Made by a program: the position numbers and the translations under genes. The notes under the pieces were generated by a model, which was given only the letters and a program-made list of their open reading frames with translations, did no database searches and was not told where the DNA came from. A DNA stretch of 63,737 nucleotides, counting the filler, from Reticulomyxa filosa (taxonomy: Eukaryota > Protista > Foraminifera), in the NCBI GenBank assembly GCA_000512085.1. It is 16 parts of 16 records of this genome, joined end to end, with 100 filler letters (N's around TTAATTAATTAA, not from the genome) between each part and the next. Parts side by side here need not be neighbours in the genome. Positions count along the whole stretch, not along the records: positions 1 to 8,744 come from ASPP01009090.1; 15 more parts are not named here. One strand, written 5' to 3'. This document shows, piece by piece, positions 1-52,445 of this stretch. The stretch's first letter is position 1. Each line of letters starts with the position of its first letter.

Positions 1-1
1 T

Positions 2-3000
2 TTTAATCAAGTGTTTGACATTGGAAGATTCACCATTTTGTGTGAAAACTCCACCAAATTGCAAACAGCAGTGGCAGTGATGAAGAAAGCGGAAGAATTT
101 AATTTGGTTGTTTCCGAAGATAAAGACTTCTTTGTCAAACAATCGAAAACACATCATCGCTTTCATAACATCAAACTGTACGTTCCAAAACACGATGTGT
201 ATGTGGAGATGCAGGCCACGCTAAAGAATTTCACGACATTGGAGGGATACACTGTCATTGAAAATCCAAAATTGAGTCATTTATTTTATGAATTGATCCG
301 AGCATGGAAACCGAGTGACTCCAAGGAAGAGGAGTTGAAGCAGTCCAGTGACGACACCTTGGCCAAGATCAATGATATCATTTGTGAATGGATCAATGAA
401 AAGGAGATTAAAAAGATTGCCAGTCGTTACAAAGCTCATTCAGAGATTGGCATTTTGAAGCCTCCGCAATTGAATCATCATCATCATCACATCATCATCA
501 TCATTCAAATGAAGTGGAAACCACTTGGAATGCATTTGTTAAATTGGCCACATTTGTGTATAAACATCTATGCACATTCACTCCCGAGAAAATGAAAGGC
601 AAAGCTATCTATGTAATCTTGTTCGAGTATTACAAAAAATGGATCATTGGAGACAAACATCCGGCAACTCGCGCAGATGTCGCGCTAATGCTGCAAGAGG
701 CGAGAAGAAGGGAAATTCGAGAAGATGCGACAGTGTCACAGGCAATTAGCACATACATTCCATTGCAAGCAAATAATTATCCTCATATTGATGGCACTAG
801 CAATGATGCATACGACTGCCATCAACATGTGATGGAGTTTTTGAAAAAAGATAGCCAACATCGAGAAGTAATGGTGTTGCAGGGGAAATCTGGCTCGGGC
901 AAAAGCTTGTTTTGTCGTTTCTTGGAAAAGACATTGTGGGAAGATTATTCCAATGGATTAACCAAAATCATGCCCATTTTCATATCTTTGCCGAAATATT
1001 ACAATGCGCAAAATGAAAGGAAATTAATATCTCAAGCATTGCAATCGAAACAGATCGGTGATGATGATATGATTGACATCATTCGTGAAAGCATCTCATT
1101 TGTGTTTATCTTTGATTGCTTTGATGAAATATTTGATACATATAATAAGCATTCGCACGATGACAATGAGCGATATTTTTTTGAGCGCTTTGATCTTGGC
1201 CAATGGAATGCCAAAGTCATTGTTACGTGTCGAAGCAATGCATTGAATGAAGAAGATAGCAAAGCCACTTTGATTCGCTCCACTCCAATGTACAGTACGT
1301 CAGTGGTTTATTTGTGGCCTTTTTCTACGCGTCAAATGCATCTCTTTGTGGAAAAGTTTGTAAAGTTGACAAAAAAGAATAAAAGTAATGCAAACTGGAC
1401 ACCACAGCAATATATCAAAACATTGGAGAAATATCCGAGTTTGCACAAAATGGTGGAAGAGCCCTTTTTCCTTTGGATCATTCTTAGTGTTTTGCCGTCT
1501 TTGATTGAGCGACATAGTATTGGAACTGTTATTTCGAAAGCGCAAGTGTATGAAGCATTCAATGAACAATGGATTGACATTCATGTCCAAAATATCTGTA
1601 CAAAATTGGCCGAGCTGCGTGTGCAGACCAATCCCAAAAAAATGAAATTGTCATTACAAAAATATTGTGAAGACTTGGCATTTGAAATGTTTTTGCAAGG
1701 CCATCAAGTTGCAATTGAGAGTAGTTTGGAATTCGAAATGGATAGCACAGAAGATTCAAAGGAGAGCCAACAGGATATATTGGAAATCACTGACTCCAAA
1801 TCTGAAACCCTCCCAAAAATGCACGAGCATTGGCAGCAGTATTTCAAAGGAGACAGTATCGCCAAATGTGTATTGAGGAGGATTGGTGACAATCAATATA
1901 CATTCCTGCACAAATCGTGTCAGGAATATTTCGCGGCACATAAGATAATTAAGAATATTATCGAATGGAAGCCTATTATGTCGAGTATCGGCAATGAAGA
2001 GTATCAGAGACAATTCGGGACTTGTGTGCAAATGTCTTATCTAAATCAAAAGCTGCTCAATGACGAAATTGCTATTATTCAATTCATTGCCGAAAGAGTT
2101 CATGAAAAGCAATCAAGTTTTTCCCATTTGCAGTCCCGCTTGTTTCGTATTATCGAATCTTCAAAAGCCAATGACCATGTTTGCATTGCAGCAGCAAATG
2201 CCGCCACTATTCTTAATTCCGCCAGGGCTAATATTCATCATCAAACTTGGGACAATATAAAGATCCCGCATGCAATCCTTGACCATGCCTTCCTCGAAGG
2301 AACAGATTTCACAAATGCAAACTTAGAGCATGTCAGTTTTGTGCAAGCACTTTTGAAAAAAGCCAATTTCCAGAATGCATCAATGAATCAGGCCTTCTTT
2401 GGCGAGTATGCCAATATTGGAGGCCATAAAAATGTGGTGACAGCAGCCGAATTTTCTCCCGACGGCAAAACTATAGTGTCATCTTCATGGGATCGCAACA
2501 TCCGATTATGGGATGCAATGTCTGGACAAGAGATCAGAGCCATATCCGGACATGAGCATTTCGTAACGCGAACGCATTTTTCACCAAATGGTCGCACAAT
2601 TATATCGTGCTCCGAAGATCAGACCATTCGAATATGGGAAGTTGCATCGGGACAAGAGATAAGGAAATTCGTCGGACATGACGGTCCGGTGACGGAAGCC
2701 AAATTCTCATCGGATAGCAGCAAGATTGTGTCGTGTGCTTTTGATCAAACAATTCGATTGTGGGATGTGCAATCAGGAAGAGAGCTGAAAAAATTGGAAG
2801 GACACTCCAGCTTTGTGGCAGGAGTGCAATTTTCTCCAGATGGTCGTACGATTGTGTCGTGCTCGGATGATCAAACGATTCGAATATGGGATGCCACAAC
2901 AGGAGTAGAGCTGAGAAGATTAGAGGGACATACGACCTCAGTCACGGCCGTGCAATTGTCATCTGATGGACAGGTCATCATTTCATGCTCTTTTGATCAA

Positions 3001-4401
3001 ACAATTCGATTATGGGATGCATTCACAGGAAAAGAAATACAACGATTTGAAGGACATACGGGCCCTGTGACAGATGCGCAAATGTCACCGGATAATCAAA
3101 TGGTCGTGTCAGGATCGTGGGATCGAAGCATTCGAGTATGGCACATTGCATCAGGACGGGAGGTGCAAAGATTGGAGGGACATGTTGGCGGTATAAGGAC
3201 AGTCCAATTTTCCTTGGATAGTCGCACCATTTTGTCTTGCTCCGACGATGCCACCATTCGCAGATGGGATGTGATATCCAGGAGAGATATTCAAAAGATG
3301 GAGGGACATTCAAACGTTATCACAAATGCACAATTTTCATCAAATGGAGCCACTATTGTGACATGCTCATTCGATCAGACTATTCGTCTGTGGGATGTGG
3401 CATCCGGACGAGAAATACAAAAATGCGAAGGACATTCACATTATATTACGGCAATACACTTTTCACCCGATGCAAGTATGCTTGTATCATGCTCTGCGGA
3501 CAAAACAATTCGACTTTGGGATATTCAATCTGGATCGGAATGCAAACGCTTTGAGGGACATAATGGAATTGTCACAGCAGCACAGTTTACACCAGATGGT
3601 CAAACGATTGTATCGAGCTCTTGGGATCGAACAATTAAAATTTGGGATGTTGCATCAGGTCAAACATTGAAAACAATAGAGGGACATTCCGATGGTGTTA
3701 GAGGTGTTCAAGTCTCATCTGATGGTCGTACTGTCGTGTCTTGCTCCGATGACAAAACAATTCGGATATGGGACCTTGCATCTGGATTAGAGATAAAGAG
3801 GTTTGAAGGACATGCAAACATTGTCACAAAAGCACAATTTTCTCCAGATGGTCGCTCCATTATTTCATGCTCTTTTGATCAAACAATCATCTTATGGGAT
3901 GTAAATACTGGAAAGGAGTTGAAGAAATTCGAAGGACATTCAAATGTTGTGAGGAGTGTGCAATATTCTCCACACAGCTCTATTATTGTATCTTGTTCGG
4001 ATGATAGGACAATTCGCTTATGGGACATAGCTTCCGGATTAGAAATATACCAGTTTGAAAAGTTCACAGATTACTTGACAACTGCTCAATTTTCTCCTGA
4101 TGGTCGTAACATTGTCTCATGCTCATGGGATCAGACAATTCGCTTATGGGATATTGCCTTTGGTGTTGAATCAAATCATGTGGAGACTGCCACATCTCAG
4201 AATTTACTGGATGGTCGTGACTTGTTGTCTTCTTCTGCAAGTACTTCCACTCAATCATTAAAAGTCCTATCGGTAAAATTGAAATGGCAAGGTGGAATGC
4301 AAAACTGTGGATTGTCAATGATTGACAGTTTTTGGAAAGATGTGCGTGGATTGGACCAGCAACAAGAGTTAGTTGTCAAGCAACGAGGTGGGATATTATG
4401 A
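2..4401 (+). CDS. NLR/STAND-like protein: N-terminal RelA/SpoT-like nucleotidyltransferase + NACHT + pentapeptide repeats + 14 WD40 repeats (5'-partial; 1-nt frameshift near 489)
   Basis: Frame 2 is open from the window start and carries DIGRFTI, KDFF, VEMQAT and SHLFYELIR motifs. It joins frame 1 inside (CAT)4-CA-(CAT)5 at 476-504. NACHT motifs: Walker A GKSGSGKS, Walker B FVFIFDCFDE, sensor IVTCRS, WHD FLHKSCQEYFAA. Pentapeptide-like segment LDHAFLEGTDFTNANLEHVSF. Fourteen 42-aa GH...WD repeats. Confidence 0.88.
2422..4152 (+). repeat. Tandem array of 14 WD40-coding units of about 126 nt
   Basis: Repeated GH-x-x-x-V-x-x-x-x-FSPDG-x-x-IVSCS-x-D-x-TIRLWD pattern with 42-aa periodicity. Confidence 0.9.
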
Positions 4402-4790
4402 TTATCTTTTTTTTTTTCTCTTATATTTTATTCCAAATGATTTTGTGATAATTTTTTCATTCTCGCAGAACTCTAATATTATCGGTCAATTTTTTCCTCC
4501 CAAAAAAAACTTTGGTGCTTGAAATTTAATACAGTAAGGCTGCTTTCAAGTAAAAGTTTTCATTTACTAGTCTTAAGTAATAAAAAAGCAACAACTTGCC
4601 TATTTTACATTGTCTCTATGTGAAGACAAATAAATAAAAGATATACGCGTACATATCTTGCAATCTCGAAAGAAAAGCCCAAGACCGATTGGTTTCTGTT
4701 TGAACCACAAAGAGCCAAAGCACAGCGTCTTGGGCCAGGATTCCAACAAAGAGATTGTTCAAAAAAAACCAAGCACGGCAATATTCAGCC

Positions 4791-6019
4791 ATGAAATCAG
4801 AAATATGTTCAAATGATGTCTCACAAAGTCATGCCTTTACCAAATATTTGGGCACTTTATTGAGTGTAAACGTTTTTTTGTTTCCGTTTCAAACCTTGTT
4901 GTGTGTGTACTCGTTGTATCACTTGATTCGATTGCAAAAGCAAGCCAGCAAGTTGCTTGTGTATTCTGCTATACTTTATCACGTATTTGCGTGGATATAT
5001 AACGCGCAAACAGCGATATCGTATTCCGTCGGATTAAAGTACATGTGGACTTTGCACTGGTCCGGTTTTTGTGTCTTGACAAAGTTGAATGACTTTCTGT
5101 CCCCTGTTCTTTTCTACGCAATGGGGATCGTATTTTGGTTTCAACGCTTAGGTGTTTATATATATTTTTTTGCTTATGTACGTATACAAGGACCATAACA
5201 AAACTATGTTGCCAACATGCAAGGAAGAAAAAAAAAAAAGCGTACTTTTTTGCCCCCTTTCAATATTCTTTTTTTTTTATAAAAAAAAAAAAAAAAAAAA
5301 CGTATACACAAAAAATAGTGGCAGTATTCGAACCCTCAACATTACGGATAAGTAAACTGAAAATTGTGATATTTTATGTGCTGCTGGCATTGCTCATCAC
5401 ATTCACGGTATGTTGTGCCGTTTTAATAAGTGTTGGACACTCGTGCGTGTTTGAAGTGCAATCAGGGGATTTTGATCCGTACGGCGAAAAGGTATATTAC
5501 GGATGTTCAAGAAATGGATTTTTGACGATGCTGTTGACCTTCAGCGGAGCTGTGCTCATCTTTGTTTTCAATACAGTCATTGCGTGGATGTACCTGAGTC
5601 GGCTCGTGGGGATCTCACGTGCACTGGATCCATTCAACAGTGTATCACAAACGATATCGACAGACAAAAAAGGTCAAACATCGGACATTACAAGCAAGGT
5701 CGAAGCCAATGAATATGCTCCTTCTTCGTACACTTCACGTTTTGAAATCGAACAGATTCGGAAATCCAGTCTTATCGCGGTGACTAGTATCCTCGGCTCC
5801 TTTGTTATGCTTGTCATTATTGCCATTTGGAGTAATCTTGGATTCCTCATGCTCTTCGATGGGTTCGCAAATGGGGTATTTATCTCGTGTTCTTTTGCCT
5901 TTGGAAACAGCATCTATTCGGTTGTGTTTGGTTGCTGTGATCGCGTCTTTCGGCCCTCTGATCGTAGATCTACCGTGGAACTCTTTCACAGAGCCGCTTC
6001 GGCAACCTCAAGTGCTTAA
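4791..6019 (+). CDS. Multi-pass (about 7TM, GPCR-like) membrane protein, 2 exons
   Basis: ORFs 4755..5198 and 5135..6019 join in frame through a GT-AG intron at 5152-5318 (WFQRL|VAVFEP). About 7 hydrophobic segments, with a Cys pair after the last helix. Confidence 0.7.
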
Positions 6020-6368
6020 TTCTTTGAGCGAATCTTGTTTTTTTTTTTTGTTTTCGTTTGTTATCATCAAGCAAGTGTTTTTTGCTATGTTAACTTGCAT
6101 GCATGATCTTTTGAAGGAAACGTGTAATGTACATATTTGACTGGCCAAGCTTGTTTATCGTGGACATTTTTTTTTTTGGTCAAATGATCGTGTTGTACTG
6201 ATTAACATCTCATTTTAAATGCAAAAAAGAAGAGTCAATTGAATATTGTTCTTTTTTTTTTCTTTTGTGCTGTACCCCTTTTAGTATAAAACGTTTAATT
6301 AAAAGTTCCCATAAATTTCTTGAAAAAACTTCACACGCGAACACTACCTCACCCAACAACAAAAAAAA

Positions 6369-6789
6369 TCACAATTTTAGCGTAAACACTGTGGCAACAG
6401 CTTGAACTGTTTCATTATTCCATACAACACTGCAACAACGATCAGTTTTTGCATCCCAATAACAACTCACGCTGCTATGGAAGCCTGCACCAACTCGTTG
6501 ATTAATAGCAATGGACACAATATATCTTTTTTTTTCCCCAGGACAAACAAAATGTTAGAGCAATTCATTTCCAAAAAAAAGCAACACAACTGCACAACTT
6601 GAATGGTTTGTTCAAGGCGGTTAGATTCTGGAGTGTAAACTCTGCCACTTTGTTTATCCATTGAGCGACTAGTTTGTGGTTGTAAAACTCCTTGCCTACA
6701 ACGTTTTCGAAGCTGTCGTTGAGAATCTTTTCAACTGCAGATGGATCTATCATCAATTCTTCATCTTCTGGCAATAATTCCTCAGCCAT
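6369..6789 (-). CDS. DYNLT1: Dynein light chain, Tctex-1 type, 2 exons
   Basis: Removing intron 6526-6598 gives LNKPFKYIVSIAINQRVGAGFHSSVSCYWDAKTDRCCSVVWNNETVQAVATVFTLKL*, the Tctex-1 signature (KPFKYIV, GAG.H, CYWD..TD). Confidence 0.92.
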
Positions 6790-7156
6790 TTTGGAGAGTA
6801 TGCAGTATTTGAAATTTGCTTTTTTTTATTTTATTTTATTTTGTAAGTAGAATTCGCGTTTGAGTTTGAGTTGACGCAGCTACAACAACGTAAGTTGCTA
6901 TTCAACAAGTGTTGAGAGAAAAAAAAAAAAAAAAGGAAAAGCAAAATACAATATATTTCGGATGGTTTAAGATTAGACCCAACCCTATTAAATTTTTTTT
7001 TTTGTTCGTGCAGCTGACAAGTTTACAAAAATACGATTAGTTCCCCAGAAAAGGCATTTGGGAGACATTTGCAAGAAACAAAGTGACAAAGATGACAGAA
7101 CATGAATATTGTTAACATGATACAAATAAGAAGTAAAACAATGAAATGAAAAAAAT

Positions 7157-7990
7157 TTAAATCATTTTTTTATGTTGTCCAATTCTTTGCATTTCAAGTT
7201 CTTTGAGTCTCATGGCCTCCGGATCGTCAAATTTCTCAGAGCTCCTCATGTACTTGATTTCTTCCAAAAGTCTTCCTGGAACATTCCAACGGTTTAACTC
7301 TTCGATGTCCAGATGAGTGGATCGATAAGTGCCAATGGCAGCGCCTAAAGCACCGGTGCTGCAAAGCCAAATGCCCTTGGCCCACCAAACAATGCTTAGT
7401 TTTCCCATTGCAAGCAACGCCAACACACCAGAACCAATTCCAATACCTGCGCCAATGTATCCATATCGACGCTTCCGTTTATCCATTCGTCGAATAAACA
7501 TTGTTTCCATTTCCGAGTAAGGTTCTTTCAAGTCATAACTTTTCTGGATGCTCAATGGTTTGTTTGTTATAAAATCGGCCTCTGCCATTCGATCATCTTT
7601 CGTACCGACTGCCTTTTTTTTTTTTTTCGTGTGTGTCTCGATAGTGTACTTTCATTTGTTTTGTGTTTTGCACTAAACTTGCGCTTGCTCATAAAATCGA
7701 TGATGGTCTTTTAACATTAGAAAGTGAAACTTTATTGGAAATATTACACAAAATCCAACAATTCCATGGGCCAATGAGCGGATGGCTTGTCCTCCTGTGT
7801 GATAAAACGCCAGAAATGACACTAAACTTGCGCTCACAAAACTCCAACGAAATGAGTTCAAAATTGGCTTTTGATGCAACGTCTTTTTCATTAGTCCCCA
7901 TTGGCTCACATTCTGCTTTCTATGTTGTTGTATATCGTACGCTGATGGTGATAATGGCACTTCTGTCAAACTTTTTGTTGCAGATGCCAT
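7157..7990 (-). CDS. Hypothetical membrane protein of about 255 aa with 4 TM segments, 2 exons
   Basis: ORFs 7673..7990 and 7157..7588 join in frame through a GT-AG intron at 7613-7678 (EQAQ|AVGTKDDRMAE). Two pairs of hydrophobic helices. Confidence 0.65.
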
Positions 7991-8291
7991 TTGCTTTTGT
8001 TGATAATAATTATTTTTTACTTTCTACGTTAAAAAAAAAAAAACCACCGAACTTATTTTATATTGAATTATTTTGAGATAATTTAAGTGGAGAAACAGTT
8101 AAAAGAACAGTACTTGTTAATAAAGAAAGGGAAGACTCTTTAATTGGCACAAGCAAAAGAATAGCACCCAAAGGATAAGGGAGTTGCAAGTTTTGTAACT
8201 CGCATGTTGGCTTGCATCTTGAATTGATAATAGGACAAAAGAAAAAAAAAAGACAAACCTGTGCCAATTAAAGAAATATAGAAAAAAAGAC

Positions 8292-8615
8292 ATGTCATCA
8301 GACCGACCTCCTTCTCCTAGCTATAGCTCAAGCATGAGCTATGGCGGGTACGGTGGACGAACGCGCTCAGGCGGACGTTCGATGATGAAACAGCAAAAGA
8401 AGACACTGAGTGAGCAGTTGAAAGACTTTATATCATTGCCAGCGAACCGGTTTTGTGCCGACTGTTTCGCAGCAAACCCGCAGTGGTGCGCACTGACGCA
8501 TGGAGTGTGTATATGTGAGAACTGTGCGGGTGTACATCGAAACTTGGGCACACATATATCGATTGTCAAGTCATTGGTGTACGACAATTGGACTGAGGAA
8601 ATGTTTGAAAAACTA
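8292..8615 (+). CDS. ArfGAP-domain protein (first exon; 3'-truncated by contig end)
   Basis: NRFCADC-x16-CENCAGVHRNLGTHISIVKS is the C4 zinc finger plus arginine finger of ArfGAPs. Confidence 0.92.
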
Positions 8616-8708
8616 GTTTTGTTGAAAAAAAAATTTTTTTTTGAAGAAGAGGGGGGGGGAGGGGGAGGGGGAAAGGGAGAGAATAAAAACTTTTTATATT
8701 TTCAAAAC

Positions 8709-8744
<36 letters not shown>

Positions 8745-26192: not shown

Positions 26193-27381
<1,189 letters not shown>

Positions 27382-30164: not shown

Positions 30165-31370
30165 TTATCCCCAAATACGAATGGGACCATTATTTGAACC
30201 ATAACACAAATTCAAATCATATTTACCATTCTTTGTCTTCTCTTTCTTTTTCAATACAATAAATTTAAGACAAAATATTCCATTATCTTCTTTATTGTCT
30301 CCTTTTATCATATATAATTCATTTTTATTTGATCGAATATCCCAAAATCGAATTGTATTATCACCTGATCCAGAACATATCACATTCGAATTACCATTAC
30401 CATTCTTTATTACAAATGGTGAATATTCAACAGACCATACTCCTTTCGTATGTCCATTGAACATTTGAACTTGTTGACCAGATCGAATATCCCGCAAACG
30501 AACACTTCTATCGTCTGATCCAGATAATATTGTATTTAATAATTCATTTGATCCATATTTTACACTCGTAATCCAATTCTTATGTCCTTTGAATACGTTC
30601 AATTGTTTGTCTGTTTCAATATCCCATATTCGAATGGTTTTATCATATGATCCAGAACAAATTGTATATCCATTTCCACCAACCACACCAATATTATTAT
30701 TATCATTATTATTATTGCTTTGCAATGGTGAAATATCAACGCACCAAATACCTTCTGTATGTCCATTGAAAACATGTAATGATTTTGATGTTTCAACATC
30801 CCATAAACGAATTGTTTTGTCACCAGACCCAGAGCACAAATATCTACCACCATTAAATGGTGAAAATGTAATTCCACCAACCCACGAATTGTGTCTATTT
30901 AATATTTGTAATTGTTGATTATGTTTGAAATCCCAAAAACGAATGGTTTTGTCATATGATGAAGAACAAATGACATTTTGACGATTGTTATGATAATGAT
31001 ATGATGAAAATTTCGCACAATACACATTATCTGAATGCCCATTGAATGATTGAATTTGTTTGTTGTTATCAACGTCCCATACACGAACTGTTTTATCACC
31101 TGATCCAGAACAAATGAATTGACAATCATCAATTGTTGAATAATCAATGCTCCACACAGTCGTTGTATGTCCAGTGAATGTATTGATTAATTTGGATGAT
31201 GAACGAAATGTATCAAACATGAAGATAGTAGACACCTGTGTTAAATAATATTGTAATATTTAATTGTCATTTGAAAAAAGAAAGAACAAATGAACTAACA
31301 TAATTGACAACGAGTTTGTCAAAATATTTGATCCATCCTAATTTAATGTTTAATGTCCGAATCCAATGAT
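30165..31370 (-). CDS. WD40-repeat protein of a lineage-expanded family (5'-partial)
   Basis: About 7 WD repeats (GH...ICSGSxDKTIRxWD). The upstream exon HWIRTLNIKLGWIKYFDKLVVNY is spliced through an intron at about 31236-31297. Confidence 0.9.
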
Positions 31371-38060: not shown

Positions 38061-40281
38061 TTACATTAATTGTCTTGATTCAAAAATAAAATCATGATGA
38101 ATACCTTGAATTTCAATATTACGTTTTAATTTATAATTATCTTGTTGAATTTGTTGAATAATTTGATAAAATGAATAATGATGATTATATATATTTTTAA
38201 TAGATTGACTAAATAATGAAAAATCATTTAATTGATTTTTTTTAATATTGACCATACAATAACAAAATCATTATTTAGTTGTTGTTGTTGTTTTTTTATT
38301 CGTATATTATTTGGAATATTAATAACATAATTATCAATATAACAACAATCAATAATATATAATTTAGGAAAATATTGAAAAGATTGAAATAAAGAAAAAA
38401 TATGATCATAAATAGAAATAAAATTTCCATTACTTGTAATTAAAATATTTTTTTGATAATTAATATAACCAGAAATAATTATAATTAAACAATCATATTT
38501 ATAAATATTTTTACGAAGTTTTTTATTTATAATTATTTCTATTAAATATTCTTTAATATCTTCTTTATTCATTTTTAATTTTTCATTATAAATCAATGTA
38601 TAATTTAATTTTTTTTCAAATAATATTCTATAATTATTAATATAATCATTACTAATATTATTATTATCATCATCATATTCATTTATATTTATCATTATTA
38701 CTAAACCATTTTTAATTATTTTTTTATTTAATTCTGATTCTATTTTAAATGATATCCAATTTATTTTAAATAATGGTTCATTATCTTTCAATATTTTTAT
38801 TATATCTTCATTTGATTCTATTATTTTTCCATTCTTTATATCTATTATTTCCATTTTTAATTTTTCTTTTGTCATTTTTTCAAAATCTTCTTCTTCTAAA
38901 TTATTATAACATTGTATCATTAATTCTTTAAATGTTAATTCTTTCATTTTTATCGTTTTCTTTTTTTCATTTATTATTACATATGCTATTATCTATTTAT
39001 ATAAATGTATATTTTTTATCTTTAATAATCATCATCAATTAGATATTTAACTTCTTTCTCTTTTTCTTCTTCCTTACTTTCTTCATTGTCCTATTTTCAA
39101 TTTATTTGTTCATTTACTCCTTTTGTTTTATTTTTAAAATTATATATATATATATATATCAAAACATTTCCAACATTCATATTCTTATCATTTGATTCTA
39201 ATGATTTTATTCCAATTCCATCATCTTCCTTTCTTTCCTTTCTTATCACTTCCACTATTTCTTTTTCATCCATCCATCCAATCACATTTGTTTTCATGTG
39301 AGTTGATACAATATCTTTGTCACTACTTCCTCCAATGATATGTATATAAGTGTTATCTTCATTCAATATCCCAAAACAATCTTTCAATGAAATAGGCAAA
39401 GTATGTTCAAATGTAATCCATGTTTTTTCTTTTATTGAATACTTGTGCACTGATTTTGAAATAATTTTATTTGATAACAAGTTACCATTCCATCCACCAA
39501 AAAACAAGATAAAGTCATTGATGTACACGTATGCATAACAGTAGAATAGCGCAATAGCATTACAAACAGGTAATCTATGAAATTGAAATGTGTTGTTGTC
39601 TTCATCATATTCAATTGACAATCCTGTCTTTTTACAAAATAACAATATTTCATTCTTTTTTATATTTGTTTTCACACGTTCTAATCCATTCATCGTTTTT
39701 AGCACAAAACAATGAAGAAATATAAAATCACTAGTCGGTAGGGTGTCATGTTTGATATATTGAAATGTATTCAAATTAAATACATCAATATTTTTTGGAG
39801 AATAAGTAATGAACAACAAATGATTGTTGCTTCCACCAATCACTGCACGCACTCCTCTATGATAATCTTTATCTCTACCAATCAAAATGGGTTGATTGTC
39901 GTTATTCGTGAAAGGATTCCATTGATTTGCCTGTTTTATTTTTTCGATATTATTTGGATCTTCTTCCCAAACACTCACATATTTCATCACCAATGTATGC
40001 TTTTTTTTATTTTCTGATCCACCAAAAGACAATAAAGTGATTTCATTTGGATTATTCTCATCTACACGCTTCACCACACAATGTCCTTGTAATTTAACAT
40101 CATTTGGATAAGAACATATCTCTTTATACTGATTTTTGATTGTATGATAGGAATAACATTTTTTCTTGTCATGACCACCACAAACGAGGATTTCGCGTTT
40201 ATAGGCCACACATTGCGTGTTATGAAGCGACATAGGCAAAGAAGGCAAAGTTTGAAAAGAAGTCATACTCGCTATGCTCAA
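38061..40281 (-). CDS. Kelch-like beta-propeller fused to a caspase-like (peptidase C14 fold) domain lacking the catalytic His; frameshift near 38240
   Basis: Kelch GG motifs (ILVCGG, LLSFGG, AVIGG, LFFGGW, IHIIGG). Phase-0 joins link the exon ending about 39166, a 39-nt mini-exon 39052-39090 and the exon starting 38992. Caspase-like motifs NGLVIMININEY, YDCLIIIISGY, PKLYIIDCC. Confidence 0.72.
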
Positions 40282-42051
40282 GATTTCTTGTGCTTTGATG
40301 TTGATTGACTGCGTTTGAAGTAAACCTAAGAGTAACTACCGTAGTTTGAGGTTTGAGGACGCCCTTTTACTCCAATACAACTAATTTACTTAATTAATTG
40401 AAAAAATTATGGTAATTGGTGCTATACTAACGCTGTATTATCACTTTCATTATCAGATCAAAATTGACAATTATTTTTTTTATTAAAAGAATCGAAAGAC
40501 TTTAAGTATGACTTCCGACAATCGATCATATTTGCTCATTCATCCGAAACAACTCCGTTAAAAATAAGTTTTCAGAGTTACTCCAATATTTTTCAACAAA
40601 AAAGAAGAGGAACACAATAATCTTTGAGCTTTCACAAAGCAACAATCATGTATCAACTGATTTTAAAATTTCAATGTAAACATAAGCATGCAACTCCAGT
40701 TCATCATGTTGTTCCAGTGGAACAAGTTCAGAGAACGCAAGAAAAAAATCAAACACGCAATATGAAGAATAACAAAGAGAATTTGAAAAAAGAAAATCAG
40801 AGCGTGCAATAGAAACAGATTGATCAGCTCAGTTGTCTTCAAATCAATTGGATGCAATCGAATTCCAGAATCAAACAAATTTGGATAAGGCGTTACGAAT
40901 AGAAAAAGAAACGATCCTGCAAGAACTAAAAGAAATGCAAAAATTTCAAGCTACATAAATATTGTGAAATGGATATTGAATTATTTTTGAGAAACCAAAG
41001 ATAAATGCAAAAAAGCAGCGATAATTTGTTGCTAAAATATGTCAGATTTTGAAATGGACTAATGATATTACTCTTCCTATTCTTTGTGTTTGTAGTTTTG
41101 ATTAAAAAAATTTGGATGACTCGAAACTTTAATCAATGGCTTGTGTCTCATTTGAGAAAATTTTTCTATGATAATCTGCATTCACCTTTGGAAGAATTGC
41201 AAGTCAATTGTCATTCCATTTTTTTCCTCGAAACAACTTAATCACTCAACAAATTTGAATAACATATGTATGTATATGCCTGTGTGTGTGATATAATAAT
41301 ACAGCAATTTATTCGTTCATTCGTTTATGCAACTATAATTTTGTCACTGGAAAAAATATTTTTTTTATTCTTTAAAACGTATTCATATCTGATTAATATC
41401 AATTCTTTGTTTTAAGAAGCACATATACAAAATTTCTCCAATCATTGAAAGGAGTATTTGTAGATATCTCATAGGTAAATAAACACATTAGTGTCAAAAT
41501 AAAATCCATTTCTTAACAATCTCTTTAAAGTTTTGAATAAACACGTTCTGTTGAAGAAAGATTTATTTGGAAATAAGTATAATTAATAGGATTGTGATGT
41601 TTGCTTTTGTAGCAAGAGCTTGTTATTTTTAAATTGAAAATAATCTGAGAATGTTGCAATGATGGCCACGCATTTTTTTCTTCACATCATTTGCATGCTT
41701 TCAATTATCACAAAAAACTTTTGCATTCTTAATTACGAACATCTTACAAAATAGTGGCCAACTCTTTTTTTAAATTCATTTTTAACACTTTATTTTATCA
41801 ATAACAAAAAAAGAGATTGGAATTTTAAAAACTTTTTTAATCGTCAAACTTTTCATCACTAATCAAAATAATATTCATTTTTGAAATTATGTTTTAATAA
41901 CACTATGACAATTCAAAGAATGGATTGTTTAAGTGGTCATGTAAATCTTTTNNNNNNNNNNNNNNNNNNNNNNNNNNNNNNNNNNNNNNNNNNNNTTAAT
42001 TAATTAANNNNNNNNNNNNNNNNNNNNNNNNNNNNNNNNNNNNNNNNNNNN

Positions 42052-49773: not shown

Positions 49774-49972
49774 NNNNNNNNNNNNNNNNNNNNNNNNNNN
49801 NNNNNNNNNNNNNNNNNTTAATTAATTAANNNNNNNNNNNNNNNNNNNNNNNNNNNNNNNNNNNNNNNNNNNNTGTATATTTGTATATTTGTATATTTGT
49901 ATTTTTTTTTTTTTTTTTTTTTACAAACTAAACCATCAAATTATTGTTTGCATTTTTTTTTTTTTTGGTTAG

Positions 49973-51984
49973 AGTGCAAGAGATGAAACAATTGTTGGTT
50001 AAAACGATCCTTGCAAACGGTGGCGATTTGGACGGCAAAACCGACTCTTTTGGGAAACGTACATACTCGTTTTGTGTTCGTTCACGCTCGTCGATCGGCG
50101 TTAAACGTACCACTTCCAGCACCATGACGAGTATGTTGACAAACACCGACAATGCACGTACATCGGACCCTTCCACCACTCACAACGACAATGGCAATGA
50201 ACATGAGCATGAAGAAGAGAAACACGAAGATGACCATAATCATAACCATGAACATGAACACGAACACGAACACGAACATCAACATGAACATCAACATGAA
50301 CATCAACATGAACATCAACATGAACATCAACATGAACATCAACATGAACATCAACATGAACCTGATAGTGAATACGTGTTGAGCGAAGAAGAAGATTCGA
50401 GTGATCGGGGAGATCTGATCGCTTTGCACAACAAAGCACACATGTCAAAAATGTGGAGTCTCTCCCTAGTCTTACTCCAATGATGTACAACTTGCTTGGA
50501 TTTTGTGCCGAATACGAGGATAATCTCAACGAGGCCATTGGCTACTATCAAATTGCTCTGCATTTCTTGCACAATGTGCAGAAGAATCCAAACTCTGCTG
50601 TGGATTATGTCTACAAGTTTTTTTTTTTCTTTTGTGTGCATTTTTTTTTTTTTTTTTTTAACAAATAAACAAATAAATAAAAGTGTGGAGGATGAAGTGT
50701 CCACTCACAATCATTTGGCAGATGCCTTGAGAAGAATGCAAAGATATGACGAAGCGAGATATCATTACGAAGTTAAACGGAAGTTTAGCAGCGATGGAAA
50801 CGATGAATTCCAGTATGCTTTTTTTTTGTATTGGATAAATGAGTACGACAAAAGCATAGAGATTTGCAAACATTTGATTGAAAAAGGTACAATACAAATA
50901 CAAATTCAAATACAAATAAATAAATAAATAAATATATATATATATGTATATATATACATATACATATATGTATTTATGCTTGTATTTATATTTATATTTA
51001 TATGTGTAATAAATACATTTTTAAAACAATTAGCGGAATGAAATGAAATGACTTTGATATGATTGACATTTTGCATGTTTTGCAACTGTGTATGTGTTGG
51101 ATACAACCAAAATGAAAAACTCGATTTGATTGGGGAAAAACGATAGGAACAACAAATTTAGCATTTGGTTTGTATGGCGACCTGTTGAGTGACACAGGCG
51201 ACCTTGCACTTGCACTGGACGTGACCCAAATGGGCTTTGAAATGGATCACGCAGGAAAAATGGGAGCAACGCATTTGATCGACTTGTCTCTGGTGGAGAC
51301 TTGGTAATGAAATATACATTGTGTGGAAAATATGAGGATGGGTTCCAACTCTATCAGCAGTTGTGGGAAAAGCATTTGAGTCAAATGAAACTGGACGATA
51401 TCGTGGAAAATTTTAGTGATGTCAGCTTTGTGCAAACATTATTGATTGCTTCGTTGGTTTTTATTTACATTGGTCATAATCATTTCTTTATTGAAAATGA
51501 AAATGAAAATGAAAATGAAATTGAAAAGATCATTGCAAAACCGCTTCTTGCGATAGACTATTTGAAACGCATCAAGGAATGGTATAACTCTTGTCACATT
51601 GCCCAAGAATGGAGTACAAACGACATCAATGTTGCCATGACTGATACTCGATTTATTCAGGAAATCGAGTACATGTATTGCTATTGGAATGACAAACACC
51701 AAAGTATGAAAACCAGTGTTGACTGTCCTTATTCAACCGCATTCTTTTATGGGCATTTTTTATTGCATTTGAAACAAGATTTCCAGGCTGCTTTGGCTGC
51801 CTTCAAACAACAATTGAGTCGTAGACCTCTGTGTGCATTAACACATGCATGGATGGCGCAATGTTATATGCAATTGGAACAACACCAACTTGCCAAAGAC
51901 TTTTTGCACAAGGCTCTTTCATTGAACCCAAAAGTCAAACCGGTGCAAACTTTTGCATTTAAATATACAAAATTGTTGCAATAG
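49973..51984 (+). CDS. TPR-repeat protein with HE/HQ repeat region, multi-exon, 5'-partial
   Basis: TPR-like helices YNLLGFC..AIGYYQIAL, HNHLADALRRMQRYDEARYHYE and AWMAQCYMQLEQHQLAKDFLHKALSLNP. Confidence 0.75.
50248..50360 (+). repeat. Coding minisatellite (GAACATCAACAT)n encoding (EHQH)n
   Basis: Visible 12-bp tandem unit, about 7 copies, preceded by GAACAC/GAACAT units. Confidence 0.85.
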
Positions 51985-52445
51985 TTAGACTATTTCCTTT
52001 TTTTGTTTTGTTTTGGTTTTTTTTCTTATTTTCTCCCCTTCCCTGGTGCAACTATCTTTTCATTGATTTAGGAAACTCGTTTGATAGCTGTGTGTGTGTT
52101 TTTTGACAAACTTGCTTCCTTTCAAATTTGTTTGTCACAAATATGATTTCTTTTGTTGCAATATCTTTATTAAAAAAAAAAAGAACAATAAACTATTAAA
52201 AATTGTGAGTTTTAAACAATAATATTAAAAAAAAAAGTCCCAACCAATACAGGGACACACTAAAAAAACCAATTCACAAGGAAAAAAAACGATAACAGAT
52301 TTTCATCCAAACAAAAAAGTTCATACACAAAACAATGAAATAATAAGATAGAATAAAATTAAAAAAAAATAATAGTTAAACAATAACAATTTTTAAAAAA
52401 AAAAAAAACGTTGGGGAGGTAGTTTCATTTTTTATTTAATACCAG

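What the first reader, a model, noticed from the sequence alone, without database searches (positions are those of the whole stretch)
2..4401. NLR-like receptor with an alarmone-synthetase-like (RelA/SpoT) N-terminal effector
Seen: the unannotated first 100 or so residues carry, in order, D-x-x-R (DIGRFTI), KDF, HHRFHNI, E-x-Q (VEMQAT) and H-x-x-Y-x3-R (SHLFYELIR). They lie upstream of a complete NACHT, pentapeptide repeats and a 14-blade WD40 sensor. Known: this order matches the RelA/SpoT synthetase fold (D..R, GY, EIQ, H), and RelA_SpoT domains occur as N-terminal effectors in some fungal NLRs. Inference: a protist immune receptor in which WD40 sensing and NACHT oligomerisation switch on a nucleotide-signal or toxin enzyme, e.g. 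(p)ppNpp synthesis or tRNA pyrophosphorylation as in toxSAS. The catalytic D and E-x-Q are retained, but the usual GY motif reads HH, which suggests changed substrate specificity.
Basis: partly seen in the sequence, partly recalled or inferred. Interest (0 to 1): 0.85.

Follow-up and report, generated by a model that had tools for sequence, protein, structure and literature searches.

The report
Protist receptor with alarmone-toxin enzyme domain
Dozens of immune-receptor-like genes of the protist Reticulomyxa carry a front-end domain related to the bacterial toxin Tas1, which likely makes an ATP-draining nucleotide when the receptor is triggered; this particular copy is cut off by the contig end and has a frameshift.

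Summary
The synthetase motifs (frame 2, nt 2-475) and the NACHT-pentapeptide-14xWD40 part (frame 1, nt 511-4401) are separated by a one-base slip in a CAT repeat. The gene also runs off the contig's 5' end, so Syn1 is missing here. The contig is Reticulomyxa filosa. 104 of 106 homologues are R. filosa paralogs, and 38 other gene models carry synthetase, Walker A and WD40 in one protein. A paralog model (pLDDT 83) folds as a RelA/SpoT synthetase. By sequence its closest solved relative is the (p)ppApp toxin Tas1/Apk1, not RelA: it has the Apk-type R-F-T and Asn signatures and H-x-x-Y-E-x-x-R. GY reads HH, or HY in some paralogs. The enzyme half is the best-conserved part of the receptor (median 88% identity, against 56% for NACHT and 46% for WD40), and 68 of 76 rows keep all 13 key residues. 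Best reading: a sensor-gated ATP 3'-pyrophosphokinase, likely making (p)ppApp. Activity, substrate and expression are untested. RelA_SpoT-NACHT-WD40 receptors are known in fungi. The Tas1-type domain, its expansion and a transmembrane-receptor form were not found described.

The parts
2..304 (+). C-terminal two-thirds of a Tas1/Apk-like RelA/SpoT synthetase domain (Syn2 DIGRFT, Syn3 HHRFHN, Syn4 EMQ, Syn5 HLFYELIR); open at the contig's 5' end, Syn1 and the upstream Cys domain missing
   Evidence: median 88% identity to 38 full paralogs
305..475 (+). helical region after the synthetase core, frame 2, ending KPPQLN
476..504 (+). (CAT)n microsatellite with a one-base deficit: frameshift from frame 2 to frame 1; assembly error or recent inactivation, unresolved
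   Evidence: no poly-His in the other 105 proteins; reads do not cover it
505..860 (+). helical linker between effector and NACHT, frame 1, homologous to paralogs from nt 511
861..2250 (+). NACHT NTPase (Walker A GKSGSGKS nt 883-906; Walker B FDCFDE nt 1111-1128) with following helical/winged-helix region (boundaries approximate)
2224..2400 (+). pentapeptide repeats
   Evidence: PF00805 E 1.4e-10; PF13599 residues 578-636 of 493-2400
2401..4164 (+). 14 WD40 repeats of 42 aa, likely two 7-blade propellers; repeat positions 11, 12, 14, 15 and 30 hypervariable across the family
4165..4401 (+). C-terminal tail ending ...KQRGGIL and stop; a similar tail ends paralog P0110

Best explanation
This is one member of an expanded Reticulomyxa filosa family of NACHT-WD40 receptors whose N-terminal effector is a Tas1/Apk-type RelA/SpoT synthetase domain, likely an active enzyme that would transfer pyrophosphate from ATP to an adenosine nucleotide, making (p)ppApp and draining ATP when the receptor is triggered. 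Shown: architecture, paralog family, conservation of catalytic residues, sequence affinity to Tas1. Predicted: the synthetase fold (AlphaFold model of a paralog). Inferred from other STAND receptors: the variable WD40 face binds a non-self ligand, the NACHT exchanges nucleotide and oligomerises, and this frees or clusters the enzyme. Inferred from Apk1/Apk2: the product is (p)ppApp and the outcome is local energy collapse or cell death, a defence response. This copy itself is frameshifted in the assembly and may be dead.
For: Fold: the ten best Foldseek PDB hits are all RelA/SpoT synthetases, Tas1 first (E 1.9e-6). VIA-align: the top 24 entries are all RSH enzymes; RelP Z 11.3 (rmsd 3.5, 156 aligned), RelQ 11.1 (3.9, 158) and Tas1 10.9 (3.7, 167) are tied, Tas1 having the highest identity, 19%. 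Sequence: Tas1 was the only PDB hit in 4 of 4 searches with family profiles or a full relative (E 0.076, 0.0034, 0.016, 0.0075). A published Tas1 jackhmmer list (PMC10083569 Dataset S1, stored part) has 118 R. filosa entries; the best 19 score 67.7-108.6 bits, above the best 'bifunctional' RSH (55.7) and 'GTP diphosphokinase' (53.4) entries. Apk signatures named in PMC12226406 (syn2 RYT vs RSH AVR; syn3 GxN vs SxH): here R-F-T (R 91/93, F 90/93, T 91/93) and Asn (93/97). Apk1 ATP-binding residues R330, N370 and E382 (PMC12691689) align with R189, N236 and E249 of P0005. Constraint: 68 of 76 rows spanning the core (of 113 domain rows) keep all 13 key residues; synthetase median identity 88% vs NACHT 56% and WD40 46%. 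Fusion: 62 of 106 proteins have the synthetase motif before a Walker A, 39 of them also WD40, one being this gene's own model. Sensor: five repeat positions have 3.2-4.0 bits entropy over 335 repeats while framework positions are under 1 bit.
Against: The acceptor-stacking Tyr of the G-loop is His in 83 of 96 rows and the preceding Gly is His in 96 of 96; no characterised synthetase with this was found. The Apk 'G' of GxN is Phe here, and syn4 reads AT, neither Apk2's YH nor RSH's IR. Clade does not fix the product: VpEAS and AaEAS, Apk1 homologues, make (p)ppGpp and SaEAS makes both (PMC12691689), and swapping syn motifs did not switch specificity. Structural Z-scores do not separate Tas1 from RelP/RelQ. 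High identity of the domain among paralogs could partly reflect recent domain shuffling or gene conversion rather than selection; no paralog DNA was available for dN/dS. The fusions are gene models, not transcripts. This copy is frameshifted and 5'-truncated.
Confidence: 0.45

Rival explanations
1. The domain is an active synthetase but makes (p)ppGpp, mixed alarmones or another pyrophosphorylated nucleotide as a second messenger for downstream targets or to manipulate bacteria, rather than draining ATP.
For: Tas1-clade enzymes VpEAS/AaEAS make (p)ppGpp and SaEAS both. The same Cys domain + synthetase sits behind a signal-like N-terminus, a long repeat ectodomain and one hydrophobic segment (residues 427-445) in P0083, a receptor-enzyme layout typical of signalling. 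Dyrka et al. proposed bacterial manipulation for fungal RelA_SpoT NLRs (PMC4986451).
Against: None of the RSH (p)ppGpp signatures (AVR, SxH, IR) is present; two Apk-type ones are. No receptor for such a messenger is known in this organism (own knowledge), and the genome could not be searched.
Confidence: 0.25
2. The domain pyrophosphorylates the 3' adenosine of an RNA (tRNA CCA end, or viral/mRNA ends), shutting down translation as CapRel and FaRel2 do; the HH change would reflect the new acceptor.
For: Adenine-accepting signature fits a CCA end; CapRel aligns over the longest stretch in VIA-align (Z 9.9, rmsd 4.4, 193 aligned). tRNA-targeting toxSAS are sensor-gated immune effectors (PMC11782079).
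Against: CapRel identity is 9% against 19% for Tas1, and it ranks 40th in Foldseek. No sequence search returned a tRNA-targeting toxSAS. The tRNA-binding basic residues and acceptor-site charge were not examined.
Confidence: 0.15
3. The domain is a pseudo-enzyme or has other chemistry: it binds ATP or an alarmone (as a sensor or decoy for bacterial alarmone toxins) or acts as an adaptor, without pyrophosphokinase activity.
For: GY is replaced by HH, with a third invariant His (H235, 95/96) nearby; a His cluster could bind metal.
Against: All donor-site and catalytic residues (K, R, EK, D, R, N, E, Q, H) are kept at 95-99%, and HH or HY persists in distant metagenomic relatives.
Confidence: 0.12
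4. On a separate axis: this particular locus is a recently inactivated copy (true frameshift in the microsatellite), while the family is functional.
For: One-base deficit with no intron possible at the junction; the poly-His tract is unique among 106 proteins; Walker B has Cys where 38 of 38 other full paralogs have Gly; the family contains many degraded models.
Against: 1,329 codons downstream and 158 upstream are open, and all catalytic residues present in the window are intact. The slip lies in a simple repeat where assemblies often err (own knowledge).
Confidence: 0.45

Closest known systems
Tas1/Apk1 (P. aeruginosa T6SS (p)ppApp synthetase, PDB 6OX6) and MuF-fused Apk2
   Same: Synthetase fold; K..R..EK..DY.GD...D..R.T; Asn at syn3; E-x-Q; H-x-x-Y-E-x-x-R; the Q..k.leDL helix before the core.
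   Different: No PAAR or MuF delivery domain and no known immunity gene; fused in cis to NACHT-WD40 in a eukaryote; GY replaced by HH/HY; preceded by a four-Cys beta domain; activity untested.
Fungal NLRs with RelA_SpoT (PF04607) effector, including RelA_SpoT-NACHT-WD40 of Gaeumannomyces (PMC4986451; PMC12258605)
   Same: Same three-part architecture and same Pfam family at the N-terminus.
   Different: Rare in fungi (under 1% of annotations in PMC4986451; 17 in Sordariales by PMC12258605's 14 = 82%), against dozens of fused models in one protist. No fungal protein appeared or the 120 listed rows, and no Fusarium or Aspergillus rows in the stored part of the Tas1 list, so probably an independent recruitment (weak evidence).
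Bacterial NACHT antiphage proteins with alarmone-synthetase effectors (Kibby et al., bioRxiv 10.1101/2022.07.19.500537)
   Same: Alarmone synthetases are listed among NACHT effector domains.
   Different: Listed without detail in the passage seen; Reticulomyxa, rhizaria and foraminifera do not occur in the main text.
Podospora HET-E/HNWD receptors
   Same: NACHT plus up to 14 WD40 repeats with a few hypervariable positions per repeat.
   Different: Effector is a synthetase, not HET; repeats within this gene are only 60% identical in DNA on average, at most 69%, so no sign of the very high internal repeat identity of HNWD genes.
Portal-linked phage synthetase of Bordetella phage PHB04 (P0146) and relatives
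   Same: Best phage match of a metagenomic family member (E 4e-5); GYRDL at syn3; lies before a 69-aa gene and an HD hydrolase, an Apk2-like layout.
   Different: Keeps GY; no NACHT; uncharacterised.

Membership tests
RelA/SpoT synthetase (SYNTH) superfamily | SYNTH fold | tested here: met
   AlphaFold model of paralog P0005, pLDDT 83; Foldseek and VIA-align top hits all RSH
RelA/SpoT synthetase (SYNTH) superfamily | Syn1 basic motif (K..R..EK) | tested here: met
   met in paralogs; off the contig for this copy
RelA/SpoT synthetase (SYNTH) superfamily | Catalytic Asp and Arg (Syn2), E-x-Q (Syn4), His (Syn5) | tested here: met
   D 91/93, R 91/93, E 90/91, Q 93/94, H 93/95; present in the window
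RelA/SpoT synthetase (SYNTH) superfamily | G-loop Gly-Tyr (Syn3) | tested here: not met
   His-His in 83, His-Tyr in 12 of 96 rows; register
RelA/SpoT synthetase (SYNTH) superfamily | Pyrophosphate transfer from ATP to a 3'-OH | not testable with these tools
   needs biochemistry
Canonical (p)ppGpp synthetases (RelA/Rel/RelP/RelQ) | syn2 AVR, syn3 SxH, syn4 IR signatures (PMC12226406) | tested here: not met
   R-F-T, F-H-N, A-T
Apk1/Apk2 (p)ppApp synthetases | syn2 R-Y-T type and syn3 Asn | tested here: met
   R-F-T and N236 93/97; N aligns with Apk1 N370
Apk1/Apk2 (p)ppApp synthetases | syn3 Gly (GxN) and syn4 YH | tested here: not met
   Phe and A-T; Tas1 itself has V-N at syn4
Apk1/Apk2 (p)ppApp synthetases | N-terminal PAAR (Apk1) or MuF (Apk2) delivery domain | tested here: not met
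   paralogs have a four-Cys beta domain upstream and NACHT downstream
Apk1/Apk2 (p)ppApp synthetases | Cognate immunity protein or Aph hydrolase | not testable with these tools
   no genome held; 5' neighbourhood off the contig
Apk1/Apk2 (p)ppApp synthetases | (p)ppApp synthesis | not testable with these tools
   needs biochemistry
NACHT-WD40 STAND receptors (NWD/NLR-like) | NACHT with Walker A and B, C-terminal WD40 repeats, N-terminal effector | tested here: met
   38 other full models
NACHT-WD40 STAND receptors (NWD/NLR-like) | Single intact reading frame in this copy | tested here: inconclusive
   frameshift in the assembly; reads do not cover it
NACHT-WD40 STAND receptors (NWD/NLR-like) | Ligand-triggered oligomerisation and role in non-self response | not testable with these tools
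   inferred from the family; hypervariable repeat positions are suggestive
Fungal RelA_SpoT NLRs | Common origin of the effector domain | tested here: inconclusive
   no fungal hits; no tree built
tRNA-pyrophosphorylating toxSAS (CapRel, FaRel2) | N-terminal tRNA-binding basic residues and small acceptor-site patch (PMC11782079) | not tested

The most novel reading that the evidence does not exclude
A free-living protist has turned a bacterial interbacterial toxin domain of the Tas1 type into the standard output of about a hundred sensors, both cytosolic NACHT-WD40 receptors and at least one transmembrane receptor, giving a eukaryotic immune pathway that signals or kills through (p)ppApp or a new pyrophosphorylated product set by the His-His G-loop. 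Related Tas1-type domains fused to ankyrin or WD40 repeats in other protists would make it widespread.
Probability: 0.4. Interest if true: 0.85.

Novelty: new variant of a known kind. Interest (0 to 1): 0.65.

Why it matters
No cytosolic alarmone synthetase has been shown to work as a eukaryotic immune effector in the papers read here; for fungal RelA_SpoT NLRs the role is only a proposal (PMC4986451). This family offers dozens of natural variants with intact catalytic residues, a soluble domain of about 190 aa that can be assayed at once in E. coli, and a naturally altered acceptor site (GY to HH, with HY variants as internal controls) that bears on the open question of what sets adenosine versus guanosine specificity (PMC12226406). 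It adds (p)ppNpp to the list of nucleotide chemistries that may be shared between bacterial conflict systems and eukaryotic immunity.

Tried and rejected
Sequencing runs: 2 DNA runs with a 0.06 share, no RNA holder listed; laid contigs do not cover nt 321-720, so the frameshift is unresolved. An intron at the junction was rejected: no GT between the end of frame-2 homology and the start of frame-1 homology. The public model of this gene (P0041) starts after the D-x-x-R motif and bridges the slip with non-homologous residues, so it was treated as a prediction artefact. The window fragment alone had no meaningful PDB hit. NCBIfam, PHROGs and PADLOC gave nothing consistent for 17 family members. 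Locus scans: 0 of 17 candidate stretches confirmed; L001 lies antisense to a bacterial cell-wall gene cluster and was rejected; L002 and L004 gave the same short match and were dropped without being read. No plasmid match. The last homologue search was crowded by phage proteins and showed no NACHT fusion outside Reticulomyxa in 120 listed of 157 (weak). The ESM Atlas gave only unnamed bacterial clusters near 0.90 and one RelA_SpoT 34% cluster at 0.88 for the synthetase. The four-Cys domain folded well (pLDDT 94.5) but had no solved match above Z 6.2. The second synthetase-like gene in the window does not align significantly with this family's profile (E 0.18). Earlier scan findings: none returned. 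No complex prediction and no tree were run.
Full report
What is in the sequence. The window is a chain of small contigs joined by N spacers; the first is nt 1-8744. The NACHT (Pfam 33.1 bits, cut-off 26.7), pentapeptide repeats and 14 WD40 repeats of 42 aa lie in frame 1 (ORF 412..4401). Six paralogs laid on the contig match frame 2 up to nt 472-475 and frame 1 from nt 511-538. Between them is a (CAT)n tract that is one base short, with no splice donor. So the gene is frameshifted in this assembly and lacks its 5' end. The only runs found do not cover the junction.

The family. The 158-aa N-terminal piece finds 106 longer proteins among 338 candidates; 104 are named R. filosa and 2 are unnamed metagenomic proteins. 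By motif, 62 of the 106 carry the synthetase motif before a Walker A, and 39 of those also three or more WD motifs; one of the 39 is this gene's own model. These are gene models, but the linker that is broken here reads through as conserved sequence in most of the 71 linker matches printed. Complete paralogs add, upstream of the window's first residue, a four-Cys beta domain and the first third of the synthetase with K..R..EK..DY.GD. The exhaustive HMMER search gave 44 proteins. Of 20 proteins looked up, 7 came from metagenome collections without a name or with an uninformative one, 1 from another read-derived set and 12 were R. filosa. The metagenomic relatives are fragments, 44-71% identical, and those that span the G-loop keep HH or HY; none was shown fused to NACHT.

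What the domain is. Pfam RelA_SpoT is weak on the fragment (E 0.016) and borderline on full relatives (E 6e-6 to 6e-3). An AlphaFold model of paralog P0005 on 39 sequences has mean pLDDT 83. Foldseek's ten best PDB hits are all RelA/SpoT synthetases, with Tas1 first (E 1.9e-6). VIA-align ties RelP (Z 11.3, rmsd 3.5, 156 aligned), RelQ (11.1, 3.9, 158) and Tas1 (10.9, 3.7, 167, identity 19%); its first 24 entries are RSH enzymes. By sequence, Tas1 is the only PDB hit of three family profiles and of one full relative, while the window fragment alone finds nothing meaningful. Independent support comes from Dataset S1 of PMC10083569, a jackhmmer search with the Tas1 domain. Its stored part (the file is cut) holds 118 R. 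filosa entries, and 24 occurrences of 'NACHT', the 19 shown all in R. filosa rows. The best 19 R. filosa entries score 67.7-108.6 bits, against 55.7 for the best 'bifunctional' RSH entry, but well below Vibrio and Shewanella entries labelled GTP pyrophosphokinase (over 150 bits). The paper's main text does not mention Reticulomyxa, NACHT or protists. Its alignment sets the profile's gYrdinl against HYRFHNT of a paralog, fixing the register: GY became HH (83 of 96 rows) or HY (12 of 96) and the syn3 Asn is kept (93 of 97).

Is it an enzyme? Against 38 full paralogs, the window's synthetase part has median identity 88%, the NACHT 56%, the region behind it 52% and the WD40 46%. Of 113 domain rows, 76 span all 13 key positions and 68 keep all of them; mean conservation is 0.98 at the key positions and 0.86 across the core. 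Apk1's ATP-binding R330, N370 and E382 (PMC12691689, passage) have counterparts here. This is what an active enzyme under purifying selection would look like, though recent shuffling or conversion could also raise identity and was not excluded.

Which product? PMC12226406 (passages) names signatures: Apk RYT, GxN, YH against RSH AVR, SxH, IR. This family has R-F-T, F-H-N and A-T: two Apk-like features, no RSH-like one, and departures from both. Against over-reading: the same paper could not switch specificity by exchanging motifs, and Apk1 homologues VpEAS and AaEAS make (p)ppGpp while SaEAS makes both (PMC12691689, passages and section 9). I put (p)ppApp with ATP drain at 0.45, another nucleotide signal at 0.25, RNA-end modification at 0.15 and no such activity at 0.12.

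How it would work. Over 335 WD40 repeats of the family, positions 11, 12, 14, 15 and 30 have 3.2-4.0 bits of entropy while G8, H9, S27, D31, W37 and D38 are under 1 bit. This resembles the four diversifying positions of Podospora NWD repeats (PMC4986451, passage); selection itself was not computed. By analogy with other STAND proteins (established knowledge, not tested here), ligand binding to the two propellers would release the NACHT to oligomerise and switch on the enzyme. In a large multinucleate foraminiferan (recalled), local ATP collapse could wall off an infected or invaded part of the cell; that is inference. One R. filosa protein (P0083) puts the same Cys domain and synthetase behind a hydrophobic N-terminus, a long ectodomain and a single hydrophobic segment, so the module is coupled to at least two sensor types. 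P0001 has two tandem copies. The Cys domain has no solved match above Z 6.2, but resembles domains of giant-virus ubiquitin-fusion proteins (E 2e-4) and unnamed rotifer clusters (score 0.95); its role is unknown.

Comparison with what is known. [quoted passage not shown] Scattered eukaryotic small synthetases were noted in PMC3153485 (passages); PMC8118318 (passages) says no cognate synthetase is known for the ppGpp seen in eukaryotic cell lines. So the architecture is a known kind. What I did not find described is a Tas1-type domain in this role, its expansion, the HH G-loop or the transmembrane form. Searches: Reticulomyxa + NACHT gave 0 papers; Reticulomyxa filosa + WD40 + genome + expansion gave 3 with unrelated titles; searches showed no such paper in their listings; the six supplements of PMC12691689 hold no Reticulomyxa. 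The library lacks most subscription papers, the R. filosa genome paper (recalled) was not seen, the SI PDF of PMC10083569 could not be read and bioRxiv supplements are closed, so a mention in domain-architecture tables is possible.

Verdict. Real feature; a Tas1/Apk-like synthetase effector on an expanded protist NACHT-WD40 family; new variant of a known kind; function inferred and directly testable; this copy possibly broken. Interest 0.65.

Noticed in passing
window 52446-53717, - strand (another contig, nt 49874-55186): A second, spliced synthetase-like gene of the Tas1 type with intact GY (DYAR, GGYKDILIN, ELQLH, GHDNY..R). Best of 830 window ORFs with a phage-only profile (E 1.4e-8), no Pfam RelA_SpoT hit, not significantly similar to the NACHT-fused family. 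A weak WD40 exon lies upstream (53834-55069, E 0.0056) and may belong to the same gene.
   Followed up: partly
protein P0083 (R. filosa, 1017 aa): Same Cys domain + synthetase behind a signal-like N-terminus, repeat ectodomain and one transmembrane-like segment: a receptor-enzyme form.
   Followed up: partly
proteins P0005 16-119 and paralogs (not in the window): Uncharacterised four-Cys beta domain, pLDDT 94.5; similar to giant-virus ubiquitin-fusion proteins and rotifer clusters; no clear solved match.
   Followed up: partly
PMC10083569 Dataset S1: Tas1-type domains also hit Symbiodinium ankyrin proteins, Chrysochromulina WD40 proteins and a Hemiselmis protein, suggesting wider use in protists.
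   Followed up: no
L003:1341-5351 (Bordetella phage PHB04) and L005-L009: Large phage family with portal, synthetase, ~70-aa gene and (in L003 and L007) an HD hydrolase: an Apk2-like toxin-immunity layout with no MuF Pfam hit.
   Followed up: partly
window 30165-31259 (-) and 39097-40335 (-): Stand-alone WD40 and Kelch repeat genes on other contigs.
   Followed up: no
window 26602-27381 (+), 56464-58117 (-), 8223-8744 (+): By motifs only (recalled, no family scan): a protein arginine methyltransferase, an NDR-type kinase in pieces and an ArfGAP zinc finger.
   Followed up: no
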